Shown here in pieces: positions 4,828 to 54,095 of a stretch of 64,000 nt of DNA. Every line of letters begins with the position of its first letter. Positions within the stretch are counted from its first letter, which is position 1. The notes beneath the pieces were generated by a model that was not told where the DNA came from, searched no databases, and saw nothing but the letters and a program-made list of their open reading frames with translations. The stretch spans positions 29,078,001-29,142,000 of the forward strand of contig OZ024748.1 in NCBI GenBank assembly GCA_964016885.1, written 5' to 3'. This stretch comes from Eledone cirrhosa (lineage: Eukaryota). The translations under genes were made by a program, and so were the position numbers.

Positions 4828-4980
4828 CTACTATGAATATGATCATATTGGTGGTGAAAGACATGTGGAACTTTATGATAGAGAAATGAAGAGAATGGAG
4901 ATGGGTCCTGTCCGAGATATTCGAGACAGAGAGGACAGACAATCTGATGACTGGTCTCGAACAGATGAAAAACTTGGAAG
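4828..4980 (+). pseudogene. Upstream SAFB-like copy, R/D/E-rich late exon
   Basis: Polypyrimidine-cag acceptor and ag|gtaatt donor. Encodes YYEYDHIGGERHVELYDREMKRMEMGPVRDIRDREDRQSDDWSR. Its phase 2 end fits the next exon. Confidence 0.65.
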
Positions 4981-5124
4981 GTAATTTTTGTTTTTCCTTT
5001 TTTTATCTTATATTAGTTTTTCTTTATTTTTCTTTAGGTATTTATTTATATATTTATGTGTGTGAAAGATCATATATAAATATATATAAATATACTCACT
5101 CAGACATATATATAGACATTACTA

Positions 5125-6680
5125 AAGACAAGTTCAATGAGTCTCTAATGCTCACTACCTCCCAGAAACCCAACAGTGACTATAAAATTATTGCTGGCGA
5201 TCTTAATGGTCATGTTGGACAACATTGTGATGGCTATGATGGTGTTCATGGAGGTTATGGGTTTGGTACTAGAAATGAGGAAGGCTTCAGGATCCTGGAA
5301 TTCTGTGATGCAAATGACCTGACTATATGCAACACAAACTTCAAAAACGTTACAGTCATTTGATCACGTATAGATCAGGGGAGTACACCAGCCAGATAGA
5401 CTTTATCCTTACTAGGAAACGAGGCAAAGTGTCTGTTTTGAACACTAAGACCCTCCCTTGGGAAGAATGTGCCTTCCAACATAATTTAATAGAAAGTGAC
5501 CTCATAGTCAGAACCAAACGTAATTGCCGGCAGAGAATACCTTAAGGAGAAGATTATGCTGAAATGTTGAAGGTATCTGGAATGGTGGGACATACTATGG
5601 TCACCCGGATAGTAAACCAAGTAATACATAATGGGGTCATAGTGTAGCAGCATCATCATCAACTATTACAAGGGCAAAGGAGACGCCCTGGATAGAGGAA
5701 ACTATAGGGGTATTAAATTAGTTGACCAAATCATGAAAGTCACAGAAAGAGTTATTACTCAACTGATTAGAGACCAAATTGATCTAGATGAAATGCAATT
5801 TGGGTTTGTGCCAGGTAAAAGTACCACGCATGCTCTTTTCCTTGTACGGCAATTGAAGGAGAAGTACCTGGCTAACAGTAAACCCCTCTACTTAACTTTT
5901 GTTGACCTAGAGAAGGCCTTTGACAGAGTCCCGCGCACCTTAATCTGGTGGGCTCTTAGAAAACTAGGAGTGGAAGAACAGCTTTTGAGAGCTATACAAG
6001 CCATGTATAGAGGAACAGTCAACAAGGTTAGAATTAACGAAGAATATAGTGATGAATTTAGTGTAATGGTAGGGGTACACCAGGGTTCCGTTCTTAGCCC
6101 CCTCCTGTTTATAATTGTTCTACAGGCTATAACAGAGGGGTTTAAGACTGGCTGCCCATGGGAACTTTATTATGCAGATGATCTAACACTCATAGCTGAA
6201 TTTATGGCTGAACTAGAGAGGAAGTTCCAAACATGGAAGCATGGCCTAGAATCAAAAGTCCTTAGAGTCAACTTATCTAAGATTAAGATTCTAGTATGCA
6301 GAAAGGAGAATAGGGCACAGGTACCCTCTGGGAAATGGCCATGCTCAGTGTGTAAGAAAAAAGTAGGTAGAAACTCCATTCTATGACCCAAATGCAAAAT
6401 ATGGGTGCATAAAAGATGTAGTGGGATCAGAGGTAAGCTATCTAAGAATGTAGATTTTATATGTGGCCGATGCTCAGGTACATGGAGAAAAGGCTCGCAG
6501 TCCACACTGTAAATGTGGTTGGCATTAAGAAGGGCCTCCAGCTGTAAAAAAAACCTGCCAGAGACGCTTCCGTGTGAGCGAGACATGGTCTCCCGATCAT
6601 TCCCGCGTCAAATGGAACAAAATCGTCTAACCCATGCTAGCGTGGAAGAAGGACATTAAACGATGATGATGATGATGACA
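5125..6680 (+). mobile_element. RTE-type LINE fragment with internal deletions and a (GAT)n tail
   Basis: Endonuclease motif IAGDLNGHVG; RT motifs QFGFVPG, FVDLEKAFDRV, GVHQGSVLSP and YADD; Cys-rich KWPCSVC; tail at 6662-6678. Confidence 0.85.
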
Positions 6681-7204
6681 TACACACATACATAACACAT
6701 CCTAATTCCAACCAATTTGCAGAGTTTACTGGCTGTATTCCATCATGCTACATACACTTGTGAGGTTGTCTTGTCAACAGCAGGCTAAAAGGTACCTTCC
6801 CACTCCATGTAGTCTCCAATCTCTCACTACTTTTAATGGTATTGTCGCCATCCTTGTACCAGTGGACCTTCATCACAATCCTGTGTCATTCCTTGACAAT
6901 GTTCAGGAGATTATTCTTCACAAATTCCTCACATGTCTTACATAGTCTCTCTTTTTCATGTGTTCTATTTATTTCAAACATTCAACACTTTTTTTTTGTA
7001 CAACCCTCGCCCTCCTTCCACATCACATGCCTGTACCAACACTAAATCCCATTCCACTTCTACTCAGCTTTTCTCTCAGCTCTCTTCTGCTCTATCATTC
7101 AGGCACACTTACATTTAACATGCAATGAATGTGTAAATCTTTATATGTACATTTATATTTGTTTATATGTATTTATACATATACATCCACAAAGCAAGTT
7201 TTGG

Positions 7205-7560
7205 AGTTGTAAATGTATACACCAACCTCTATAGAACAGTGTTGATGTATATACCAACCTCTATAATATGATAGTGTTGGTATATACACCAAACCCTATA
7301 TAACAGTGTTGACATATACACCAACCTCTATATAGAACAGTGTTGGTATATACACCAACCTCTATAATATGACAGTGTTGTTATATAGACCATCCTCTGT
7401 ATATGATAGTTTTGGGACATATACCAACCTCTTTTTATAACAATGTTGGTGAATACACTAACCTATATATGTTAGTGTTGATGTATGTACATCAACCTCT
7501 ATACATGACAGTGTTGATGTATCTATATATGACTGTTGATATATACACCAACCTCTCTAT
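7205..7560. repeat. Minisatellite with a ~35-41 bp unit
   Basis: Repeated acagtgttg(g/a)tatatacaccaacctctata, about 9 diverged copies. Confidence 0.8.
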
Positions 7561-7651
7561 TTGTATCAAAATATCTCTTGTAGAATATGCTTCTAAACAC
7601 TTTCTTGAAGTAAATTGCTAGCTTTGCATCTGATTTAACCCTTATATTTAG

Positions 7652-7785
7652 GATGCCCTATGAATTCAGAAGAGATATGGGAGTAAACCAGGAAAGATAT
7701 ATTGGCCCTGAATCAGGACAAGGAGACCCTGACAGACAAAATATATCAGCTCATGATAGGCTGGGCTGAATGAGAAATACTCCTG
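7652..7785 (+). pseudogene. Upstream SAFB-like copy, penultimate exon with an in-frame TGA
   Basis: tttag acceptor and g|gtaagt donor. Encodes RMPYEFRRDMGVNQERYIGPESGQGDPDRQNISAHDRLG*MRNTP with TGA at 7767-7769. Phases 2 and 1 fit both neighbours. Confidence 0.65.
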
Positions 7786-52068: not shown

Positions 52069-52108
<40 letters not shown>

Positions 52109-52367
52109 TCATCATCACCGCTTAACGTCTTATTTTCATGCCTTGCATGGATCAGACTGGTTGTCCATGCTATGAGGCAAGTCTGTCCAGTTGGCTGTGC
52201 CAAATCTTGTTCAAATGGCCTTTTCTTTACTGTTGGTATTTTGGCCTTTTCTTTACTGTTGGATGCCCTTTCTAACACCAACCATGCTTAGAGTGTGGAA
52301 GTGGGTGGTCCTGTTACGAGAGGGGTCCGACAAATTGGCCGCGCTTACTCTGATCATAGGCGGATCT

Positions 52368-52798
52368 GTAATTGACAATATACACAGAAATTGAACGAAG
52401 ACTGTGTTACACTGTCTCATGTAATCAGTAATGTAATCCATGATGCATTAAAAAAAGGCGATATTATATATAAACTGCATTAGGAGAAAATTAGTGACGG
52501 AAATATATGAATCTTTATTTAAGCGATCACTAACCGGAAGTGTTGACATTTGAAAATTTTAAAGAAGTGAATCTTTAAATAAGCAATAAAATATATTGAA
52601 TCAAAAGCTACGAAATTTAGCAGATGAATTATGTAATATTCATTCATTATTTATTCAAAGTAATCCAACTTATTTTACAAACAGGATAAAAAATTATATT
52701 CTGGATGCAGTCCCGCACTCCTTTCTTTATTATATTTATTGTTTACTAATCTGAATAAGAACAGCAGTAACCCGGGCAACGCTGGGTCATTCAGCTAG
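52368..52798. mobile_element. Helitron fragments
   Basis: 52368-52735 is a second copy of 30130-30497. A separate 3' end (acccgggcaacgctgggt...ctag) lies at 52770-52798. Confidence 0.65.
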
Positions 52799-53499
52799 CA
52801 TATATATATATATATATATTCCCATATGCAGCGGCTGAGCCATACATCTAGTATGTGCTACCTTCCTTTCCATCACCCCTCCCATACACCTCCCACATCC
52901 TAACAACCCACGCCTAGATCTACTTCACCAGTTCTCGTGCACCTTCCCCACTCCAGTTCCCAATCCACACTATAATATGGTCGTCTTGATGCCACGGTAT
53001 CGAGTGCGCAATCCATACTGTAAAGTGGTCATGTTGGTGACACGATAAAATGTGCACAGCCTACACTGTAAAATAGTCATGTAGGTGTCATGATGAAAAA
53101 CCCCAATAGACACTGTAAATGGGTTGGTGTTAGGAAGTGCATCCAGCTGTAGAAACCAAGCCAAAATTAGTTCTGTGTGAGCAAAACACGGTCATTCAAC
53201 TTGGCTTCTCTCACAACGGGACAGTTCGTCTAACCCATGCTAATGTGGAAAATGGACATTAAATGATGATGATGTACAAAGAAATTTGGCAGTTGTGTAC
53301 ATGTATATTTGTTAAACTATTAGTCATGATAAAATGTTTCCAGTACAAAACAAGCACAAAATAGAGCATATGAGTATGACTTGGTCACCTGACCAATTTA
53401 GCCACCAGAAGTTATGGTCAATCTAACCCATGTAAGCATGGAAAATAGACATTAATCGAAGATTATGATGATATATTTGTGTGTGTGTGCTATTTGCAG

Positions 53500-53604
53500 A
53501 GAAGAAAGACCGAAAGAGAGATGACAGAAGTAGGAGAATATCCAGCAGGAGAGATGACAGAAGACATAACAGCAGCAGCAGAAGTAGTTACCATAGAACA
53601 TCAG
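53500..53604 (+). CDS. SAFB: SAFB-like exon 13 (R/D/S-rich)
   Basis: tttgcag acceptor and cag|gtcagt donor; EKKDRKRDDRSRRISSRRDDRRH; phase 1 to 1. Confidence 0.8.
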
Positions 53605-53766
53605 GTCAGTCTCCCTTAACACTTCTCTGTCAGTGTGTCTGTTATCCTTATACAAGACACTTAACTTTACTTTATCTAAAGACAATATGGTGATAGATAT
53701 ATATGTCTGGACTTCACTTCAAACATTCAACTATTATTTGTAAGTTGTTTTATGTAAATATTTCAG

Positions 53767-54095
53767 ATAAATCTCATGTGTCTACATCAAGTAGGGGTAC
53801 AAGTAAACCAGGTACAAGTAAACCAGATGCAAGTAAACCAGGTACAAGTAAACCAGATACAAGTAAACCAGATACAAGTAAACCAAGTACAAATAAACCA
53901 GGTACAAGTTCAAGATCTGTTACAAAAGAGGGCTCTGAGAAAGGTGTAAAACCTTTATCACCTTCAAACACTAAAGAGAAGGTTGCCAACCCAGAAAAGC
54001 CTGAACCAGGTGAACCAACTGCCACAACTGAAACTACAAAAGATAAAAGTGGCAAAGATGCCAAGAAGGATATTTTATCATTTGATAGAATAAAA
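53767..54095 (+). CDS. SAFB: SAFB-like exon 14; gene continues beyond the window
   Basis: tttcag acceptor and aaa|gtaagt donor. Contains TSKP pentapeptide repeats and ends KDILSFDRIK, the SAFB motif preceding the E/R coiled coil. Confidence 0.87.

What the first reader, a model, noticed from the sequence alone, without database searches (positions are those of the whole stretch)
4828..54095. Tandem cluster of SAFB-like genes: one open gene, one 3' relic and one orphan 5' copy
Seen: a 14-exon, stop-free SAP+RRM gene at 15450-54095; a duplicate of its promoter and SAP exon at 12530-12848; and three phase-compatible terminal exons ending FDAYK at 4828-10486, all on the + strand. Known: Drosophila has a single Saf-B, vertebrate SAFB1/SAFB2 are head-to-head, and SAFB proteins bind LINE RNAs and suppress transposon exonisation. 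Inference: this is a head-to-tail expansion with gene birth and death of a transposon-surveillance RNA-binding factor in a LINE-rich genome. Assigning the upstream exons to SAFB rests on my recall of the C-terminal motif.
Basis: partly seen in the sequence, partly recalled or inferred. Interest (0 to 1): 0.8.

Follow-up and report, generated by a model that had tools for sequence, protein, structure and literature searches.

The report
Octopus SAFB gene array, diverging RRMs
An octopus chromosome carries about nine side-by-side copies of SAFB, an RNA-binding gene described as single-copy in invertebrates and known to curb transposons in mammals and flies; some copies are dead, two keep the ancestral RNA-binding domain, and four carry an altered one that likely binds RNA differently, which is untested.

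Summary
The window lies in a 700-kb SAFB array on one octopod chromosome, with copies Z, A–H and two exon-1 stubs. The window's gene (C) continues past a 52.5-kb intronic satellite to 21 exons and 1026 aa, fully open. The '3' relic' is the end of pseudogene B. The 'orphan' copies sister gene E, not C. Both come from one tandem block duplication (A–B–stub ≈ C–D–E, about 90–98% identical). The array is not purely head-to-tail, and the copies exchange sequence by gene conversion. G and H keep the canonical RRM. A, C, D and E change 8–10 of 55 columns that are invariant from ape to gastropod, with dN/dS about 1; positive selection is not shown. Spliced contigs show A-type and G/H-type transcripts. 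Short-read DNA holds copy-specific alleles, which argues against an assembly artefact. Public proteins show SAFB clusters in other octopods, including copies with divergent RRMs and a SAP-less Z orthologue. No paper describing this was found. The transposon-surveillance link is plausible but untested.

The parts
4828..4980 (+). Exon 19 of pseudogene copy B (B begins about 31 kb left of the window, at G000:C8:29046749)
7652..7785 (+). Exon 20 of B; nonsense TGA at 7767 (CGA in A, C, D, E, G, H)
10110..10486 (+). Terminal exon 21 of B; nonsense TAG at 10364 (CAG in the other six copies); tail QFDAYKFMGQM*
11290..13128 (+). Truncated duplicate of the 5' end of copy E: upstream region, exon-1 stub (ATG 12736, broken near 12855) and a piece of E intron 1 (12893-13128)
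   Evidence: 94.7% to C8:29244388-29245911 and 95.8% to 29246612-29246845
12381..12614 (.). 234-bp palindrome: fold-back doubling of the upstream element found before exon 1 of most copies; also present before E; matches only within this array
15249..15449 (+). Upstream element and likely 5' UTR of copy C; a G-type RNA contig starts at the place equivalent to 15371
15450..15587 (+). Copy C exon 1, SAP domain
19001..30849 (+). Copy C exons 2-7 (19001-19061, 25063-25091, 26674-26728, 27518-27549, 29749-29940, 30816-30849), acidic linker
19466..24737 (+). Near full-length LINE (ORF1 20142-21650; endonuclease-RT 21599-24465) in intron 2 of C, absent from A
42881..45179 (+). Copy C exons 8-9 (42881-43466, 45139-45179)
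45289..47617 (+). Copy C exons 10-11 (45289-45383, 47468-47617): RRM of the derived class, 9 of 55 invariant columns changed
48066..54095 (+). Copy C exons 12-14 (48066-48141, 53500-53604, 53767-54095), basic low-complexity region
55491..64000 (.). Start of a 52.5-kb array of about 1500 35-bp units inside intron 14 of C; exons 15-21 follow at C8:29186479-29198872, outside the window

Best explanation
The window spans the junction of a recent tandem block duplication inside an octopod SAFB gene array whose copies show patchwork near-identity, likely from gene conversion; copies G and H keep the ancestral RRM and likely do the known SAFB job, while A, C, D and E carry an altered RRM under relaxed constraint and likely bind RNA more weakly or differently. 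Shown: nine SAFB-like copies and two exon-1 stubs on C8 28.85-29.55 Mb. A, C, E and G are fully open. D and H share a frameshift in the last exon. B and F are dead. Z is an older SAP-less paralogue. Block A-B-stub duplicates block C-D-E(5'), which explains both the relic and the orphan. Inferred: unequal crossing-over generates the copies; conversion homogenises most exons while exons 15, 17, 19 and 20 keep an older split; canonical copies bind purine-rich pre-mRNA and block cryptic splice sites in intronic transposons as in mammals and flies; derived copies add dosage or modified specificity through the same SAP-RRM-coil scaffold.
For: Copy map and models: 9 SAP-exon, 7 RRM-exon and 7 terminal-exon hits, all in this region; 21-exon models with GT-AG introns throughout in A, C, D, E, G, H. 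Block duplication: the A 3' flank runs collinear with the C 3' flank at 97.8% into B, B matches D at 98%, and B-stub matches D-E at 92-96%. Of matching 500-bp tiles, 55 of 86 from A go to C and 27 of 51 from B go to D. Conversion: A vs G dS is 0.53 in exons 15-17 and 0.42 in exons 19-20, but 0.04-0.08 elsewhere. Exon 18 differs by 0-1 of 144 nt in all eight pairs compared, across both strands. H has an ancestral-type 5' end on a body like the other copies. Selection: A-C dN/dS 0.43 (p=0.017) and A-G 0.56 overall. The RRM is 15 N to 4 S (dN/dS 1.08), against 6 N to 14 S for the SAP exon in A-H (Fisher p=0.004). Expression: unlabelled run X2 shows GT-AG spliced contigs with A-specific and G/H-type alleles. 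Real copies: short-read DNA contigs hold A-, C-, D-, E- and G/H-specific alleles. Other octopods: at least 6 distinct RRMs in O. vulgaris, 7 in O. sinensis, 2 in O. bimaculoides, and two Argonauta genes 26 of 879 aa apart.
Against: No binding or knockdown data exist for any octopod copy. RRM dN/dS is not above 1 (exon 11 alone: 12 N to 1 S, p=0.18), and it does not differ from the old-diverged exons 15-20 (p=0.30). D vs E looks neutral (dN/dS 0.89, p=0.69), so part of the derived class may be decaying. The exon partition for the conversion test was chosen after seeing the data. dN/dS was counted pairwise (Nei-Gojobori), which conversion distorts. The link of H exons 1-3 to exon 4 crosses a 200-N assembly gap. 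The DNA runs may be the sample the assembly was made from, so they are independent of the assembly but not of the individual.
Confidence: 0.7

Rival explanations
1. Neutral turnover: one canonical SAFB (G) does all the work; the other copies are by-products of an unstable repeat-rich locus, redundant and drifting toward loss, with no new function.
For: B and F are dead, there are two exon-1 stubs, and D and H are frameshifted. D-E dN/dS 0.89 and RRM dN/dS about 1 are what relaxation predicts. Introns are full of LINE and SINE pieces that favour unequal crossing-over.
Against: A, C and E keep ORFs of 1014-1057 aa with dN/dS below 1 overall. An A-type spliced transcript exists. Divergent-RRM paralogues persist as orthologue pairs between O. 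vulgaris and O. sinensis, and Z persists as far as O. bimaculoides.
Confidence: 0.35
2. Adaptive diversification against transposons: the derived RRMs evolved to recognise octopod LINE families that escape the canonical RRM.
For: The changes sit at positions invariant for more than 500 My, several in the beta2-beta3 loop (A38T, S40N, R44Q), while the RNP aromatics are kept (loop assignment from general RRM topology). Exon 11 keeps 12 amino-acid differences with 1 synonymous one although its flanking introns are unalignable. Divergent RRMs recur in Octopus and as a second RRM in cuttlefish. LINEs are expressed in octopus brain (PMC9115989, search listing only).
Against: No significant dN/dS above 1 and no target data. 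PMC10901741 describes SAFB as non-adaptive and reports the ER-rich C terminus as the part needed for rescue. Squid and cuttlefish copy numbers were not counted, so no correlation with LINE load is shown.
Confidence: 0.15
3. Tissue specialisation unrelated to transposons: derived or truncated copies tune alternative splicing in neurons or testis, possibly as competitors of the canonical protein.
For: SAFB controls giant neuronal and spermatid exons and falls in spermatids (PMC10901741, passages). The derived class has a shortened, less E/R-rich exon 15; Z lacks SAP and most of the coil.
Against: No tissue-labelled RNA was available; the one spliced run holds both classes together.
Confidence: 0.2
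4. Assembly artefact: haplotypes or mis-joined reads laid in tandem.
For: A and C are 99.8-100% identical over about 3.5 kb around exons 2-3; one gap lies in the region.
Against: Elsewhere A and C are 87-98% identical with different insertions and a 93-nt exon-8 indel. Six or more distinct sequences exceed two haplotypes. Short-read contigs carry copy-specific alleles. Other octopus assemblies also show clusters.
Confidence: 0.03

Closest known systems
Metazoan SAFB family (human SAFB1, SAFB2, SLTM; Drosophila Saf-B; C. elegans PHM-2)
   Same: SAP-RRM-ER-rich-G-rich architecture. The G and H RRM matches chimpanzee SAFB2 at 67 of 78 residues.
   Different: About nine tandem copies instead of the single invertebrate gene stated in PMC10901741. 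Derived RRMs match at 55-58 of 78. The terminal RRY/RRF seen in ape, amphioxus, gastropod and cuttlefish proteins is lost in A, C, E and G and kept in Z.
Annotated SAFB clusters of Octopus vulgaris (CAI9735043-56), O. sinensis, O. bimaculoides and Argonauta hians
   Same: Several genes on one contig, canonical plus divergent-RRM copies, a Z orthologue (XP_014784461.2), and recurrent early ends of the last exon.
   Different: A, C, D, E, G and H form their own clade (SH-aLRT 100 in a quick tree), so the copies were re-duplicated or homogenised in this lineage, and its derived RRM is younger (8-10 changes against 27-30).
Vertebrate SAFB1/SAFB2 pair, and SAFB2 amplification on gorilla acrocentric chromosomes (bioRxiv 2025.12.22.696095, passages)
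   Same: Local duplication of SAFB. The chimpanzee SAFB2 and macaque SAFB1 entries aligned here have identical RRMs. Gorilla SAFB2 copies have a leading-branch dN/dS above 1 with a wide interval.
   Different: Here the copies form tandem and inverted blocks, with no close head-to-head pair of intact genes. The gorilla copies ride on subtelomeric amplification. The head-to-head layout of SAFB1/SAFB2 is recalled, not tested.
Tandem gene families under birth-and-death evolution with interlocus gene conversion
   Same: Pseudogenes, block duplication, mosaic identity and islands of retained divergence.
   Different: It acts on a normally conserved, low-copy nuclear RNA-binding gene.

Membership tests
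SAFB family | N-terminal SAP domain | tested here: met
   PF02037 38.2 bits, cut-off 23.9, for copy C; exon 1 present in A, C, D, E, F, G, H. Not met for Z, which starts with a different exon like its SAP-less O. bimaculoides orthologue.
SAFB family | Central SAFB-type RRM | tested here: met
   PF00076; 56 of 78 residues identical to chimpanzee SAFB2 for C, 67 of 78 for G and H; RNP aromatics kept.
SAFB family | ER-rich repeat after the RRM | tested here: met
   Exons 15-17, outside the window; shortened in A-E (exon 15 of 143-155 nt against 164), largely lost in Z.
SAFB family | G-rich C terminus with FDAY-type tail and terminal RRY/RRF | tested here: inconclusive
   FDAY tail present in A, C, E, G; removed by frameshift in D and H; terminal RRY/RRF absent from the main octopod class and present in Z.
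SAFB family | Closest relatives are named SAFB proteins | tested here: met
   13 of 13 hits of exon 8 are cephalopod SAFB/SLTM-named proteins (the organism of P0011 is cut off in the listing and taken as a cuttlefish from recall).
SAFB transposon defence (PMC10901741) | Binds purine-rich sense LINE RNA | not testable with these tools
   Needs CLIP or in vitro binding.
SAFB transposon defence (PMC10901741) | Loss causes transposon exonisation and retrotransposition | not testable with these tools
   Needs knockdown with RNA-seq.
Vertebrate-type head-to-head SAFB pair | Two intact genes sharing a short bidirectional promoter | tested here: not met
   The inverted exon 1 lying 2.4 kb from A is a stub; Z starts near C8:28904697, about 45 kb from A.
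Birth-and-death family with conversion | Intact, broken and fragmentary copies side by side | tested here: met
Birth-and-death family with conversion | Patchy synonymous divergence with tracts reaching into introns | tested here: met
   dS 0.04 against 0.4-0.5 within one pair; tracts of 90-100% identity running up to several hundred bases into introns; partition chosen after seeing the data.
Arms-race gene family | dN/dS significantly above 1 at the binding surface | tested here: inconclusive
   RRM 15 N to 4 S, dN/dS 1.08; exon 11 12 to 1, p=0.18; no codon-model test run.

The most novel reading that the evidence does not exclude
Octopods turned SAFB, described as a single-copy, non-adaptive somatic transposon guard in invertebrates, into an evolving panel of paralogues with re-tuned RRMs that track lineage-specific LINE RNAs: an RNA-level counterpart of their zinc-finger expansion.
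Probability: 0.15. Interest if true: 0.8.

Novelty: new variant of a known kind. Interest (0 to 1): 0.5.

Why it matters
PMC10901741 states that invertebrates have a single SAFB and calls it a non-adaptive defence. Octopods break the first statement. They also supply natural RRM variants, a SAP-less paralogue and tail-less copies, so a binding assay on about four RRMs could test directly whether SAFB specificity can evolve in a LINE-rich genome with long introns. In practice, automated annotations merge these tandem genes into false 'isoforms' (one O. sinensis isoform set holds two different RRMs), which affects cephalopod expression and RNA-editing analyses.

Tried and rejected
Orphan as a duplicate of the window's own gene: rejected, it matches E. 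Palindrome as a MITE: rejected, 16 of 16 genome matches lie in this array. Inverted exon 1 as the start of Z, giving a vertebrate-like head-to-head pair: rejected after finding Z's own first exon. Satellite as a dispersed family breaking the gene: rejected; it grew from a few-unit seed present in intron 14 of A, B, D, E, G and H, and the only matches elsewhere are 68-70% on C17 (only 4 of 6 candidates were scored). Restorative A-to-I editing of the derived RRM (7 of 12 exon-11 changes are G>A): not supported, since the RNA contigs keep A at most such sites; one site (47598) reads G, which is also the D/E allele. Expression of C and B themselves: their specific alleles were not seen in X2 contigs, but contigs drop rare variants, so this is no evidence. 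No RNA holder was listed on record; X2 is judged RNA only from its spliced joints. Contig depths were not used to rank copies. A short Z RRM query found nothing; the ESM Atlas gave no usable hit for Z's last exon; no solved SAFB RRM appeared at E<=1e-8. The careful tree did not finish; the quick tree was used with 27 rows (ape and amphioxus rows left out), and Z's placement with an unnamed protein may be long-branch attraction. Earlier scan findings: none. No paper on an octopus SAFB expansion was found; a 2026 octopus-transposon review has 0 occurrences of SAFB. Gene-family tables in supplements of cephalopod genome papers were not read and could list it. Copy numbers in squid, cuttlefish, bivalves and most gastropods were not counted; only Gigantopelta looked single (4 isoforms, 0 substitutions).
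Full report
Setting. The window is G000:C8:29078001-29142000 of a 3.0-Gb genome. Exon 8 of the gene matches named SAFB proteins of Octopus vulgaris, O. sinensis and O. bimaculoides at 55-69% and Argonauta at 40%, so the animal is an octopod other than those species. I did not identify it further.

Observation. The duplicate of the upstream region and exon 1 is at 12520-12855.

The whole array. 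Genome searches gave 9 strong SAP-exon hits (3 further weak hits on other contigs, E 0.01-0.3, not followed up), 7 RRM-exon hits and 7 terminal-exon hits, all on C8 28.88-29.55 Mb (such counts are lower bounds). I fetched 864 kb including the window and modelled 21 exons per copy. Plus strand: A (1014 aa, open), B (pseudogene), exon-1 stub, C (the window's gene, 1026 aa, open), D (2-nt deletion in exon 21), E (1057 aa, open), F (exon fragments). Minus strand: H (same 2-nt deletion as D; exons 1-3 lie across a 200-N gap), G (1051 aa, open), an inverted exon-1 stub, and Z. C continues beyond a 52.5-kb array of about 1500 35-bp units in intron 14. B has lost its promoter, nearly all of exon 1 and most of exons 4-12; it has a frameshifted exon 13 and stops at window 7767 and 10364. 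Z is open over the 11 exons modelled (751 aa) with matching intron phases and ends in RRF. It has a 60%-identical match whose cluster holds O. bimaculoides XP_014784461.2, lacks SAP, and shares its first exon with Z at C8:28904697. Z's exons between that start and exon 8 were not fully modelled.

One duplication explains the window. The A 3' flank is collinear with the C 3' flank (97.8% over 2.4 kb) up to the deletion that removed B's promoter; then B follows D (98%); then B's 3' flank and the stub follow D's 3' flank and E's 5' end (92-96%). So A-B-stub duplicates C-D-E(5'), and the window covers the junction. The relic and the orphan are the last gene and the cut end of the left block.

Not an artefact. 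Introns of A and C are mostly 87-98% identical with different insertions. Short-read contigs of runs X1 and X3 carry alleles specific to A, C, D, E and G/H around exon 11. These runs may be the source sample. A related organism's DNA run (X5) also shows several exon-11 versions.

Gene conversion (inferred). Between A and G, dS is 0.53 in exons 15-17 and 0.42 in exons 19-20 but 0.04-0.08 in all other blocks (Fisher p=5e-17 on a partition chosen after seeing the data, exon 18 alone p=4e-4). Near-identical tracts extend into introns and end abruptly. H's exons 1-4 resemble the ancestral-type Octopus gene while the rest groups with the other copies. In a quick whole-protein tree A, C, D, E, G and H form one clade apart from the Octopus paralogues.

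Two RRM classes. Of 55 RRM columns invariant in 8 reference proteins (ape, amphioxus, two gastropods, Argonauta, cuttlefish, two O. sinensis), G and H change 0, A/C/D/E change 8-10 and Z changes 12. A vs G has 15 nonsynonymous and 4 synonymous differences in the RRM (dN/dS 1.08), against 6 and 14 in the SAP exon of A vs H (p=0.004). This shows released constraint. It does not show positive selection (exon 11: 12 to 1, p=0.18; not different from exons 15-20, p=0.30). Whole-gene dN/dS is 0.43 for A-C and 0.56 for A-G, but 0.89 for D-E.

Expression. Run X2 is unlabelled but shows GT-AG spliced joints absent from the DNA runs. One contig matches A at all 8 diagnostic sites in the first part of exon 11; others are G/H-type in exons 11-12 and 19-21 and G-type in the 5' end. 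Both classes are thus transcribed and spliced. Expression of C itself is not shown.

Other species. Public proteins give at least 6 distinct RRMs among 13 O. vulgaris entries, 7 among 25 O. sinensis entries (8 strings, two being isoforms), 2 among 17 O. bimaculoides entries plus the Z orthologue, and two Argonauta genes; each set lies on a contig of one length per species. Octopus also has copies with 27-30 invariant columns changed. A cuttlefish protein model has two RRMs, one mildly derived. The gastropod Gigantopelta shows one gene.

Literature. PMC10901741 (passages read) defines SAFB by SAP, RRM and ER-rich repeat, states that invertebrates have a single orthologue, shows suppression of transposon exonisation in mammals and transposon upregulation on depletion in flies, and finds the ER-rich C terminus needed for rescue. 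bioRxiv 2025.12.22.696095 (passages) reports SAFB2 amplification in gorilla. PMC12988792 (term search) reviews octopus transposons without mentioning SAFB. PMC9115989 and PMC12767362 were seen as search listings only. Searches found no description of an octopod SAFB expansion; supplements were not read.

Verdict. A real, lineage-renewed SAFB array with canonical, derived, tail-less, SAP-less and dead copies. The structure and history are well supported. The function of the derived copies and any link to LINEs are inferred. The multiple genes are already present, unremarked, in public annotations, and tandem turnover with conversion is a familiar process. Interest 0.5.

Noticed in passing
window 55491-64000, continuing to G000:C8:29186047: A 52.5-kb satellite of about 1500 35-bp units (94% matches) expanded inside intron 14 of an open gene from a few-unit seed present in the sister copies.
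   Followed up: yes
window 15285, 12555 and 12430: An 11-bp motif resembling the CTCF core (resemblance recalled) lies 165-195 bp upstream of the ATG in A, C, D, E, F, G and both stubs, doubled by the palindrome in E and the window's stub; absent before H.
   Followed up: partly
window 19466-24737: Young, near full-length sense LINE in intron 2 of C only: 502-aa ORF1 with Q/H repeats, and an endonuclease-RT frame split near 21900.
   Followed up: partly
window 521-3678 (-): Gypsy-like LTR retrotransposon remains (RT and integrase Pfam hits) in an intron of B; related copies at C8:28.94 and 29.00 Mb.
   Followed up: partly
G000:C8:29240736 region (D) and 29426217 region (H): D and H, on opposite strands, share the same 2-nt deletion in the last exon, which removes the FDAY tail; several Octopus paralogue models also end early at the same glycine run.
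   Followed up: partly
window 53796-53909: A coding 15-bp repeat (GTSKP units) in exon 14 varies in copy number among paralogues (exon 239-404 nt).
   Followed up: no
P0011 (cuttlefish SAFB model): Holds a tandem second RRM that shares A38T and L69F with the derived class here; convergence or a merged gene model.
   Followed up: no
G000:C8:29453-29550 kb: Intron 3 of H is about 97 kb, rich in AT microsatellite, and holds the only assembly gap of the region.
   Followed up: no
window 40820-41870: Decayed Tc1/mariner-like element (HTH Pfam hits) in intron 7 of C, starting right after an AG and so a possible cryptic exon.
   Followed up: no
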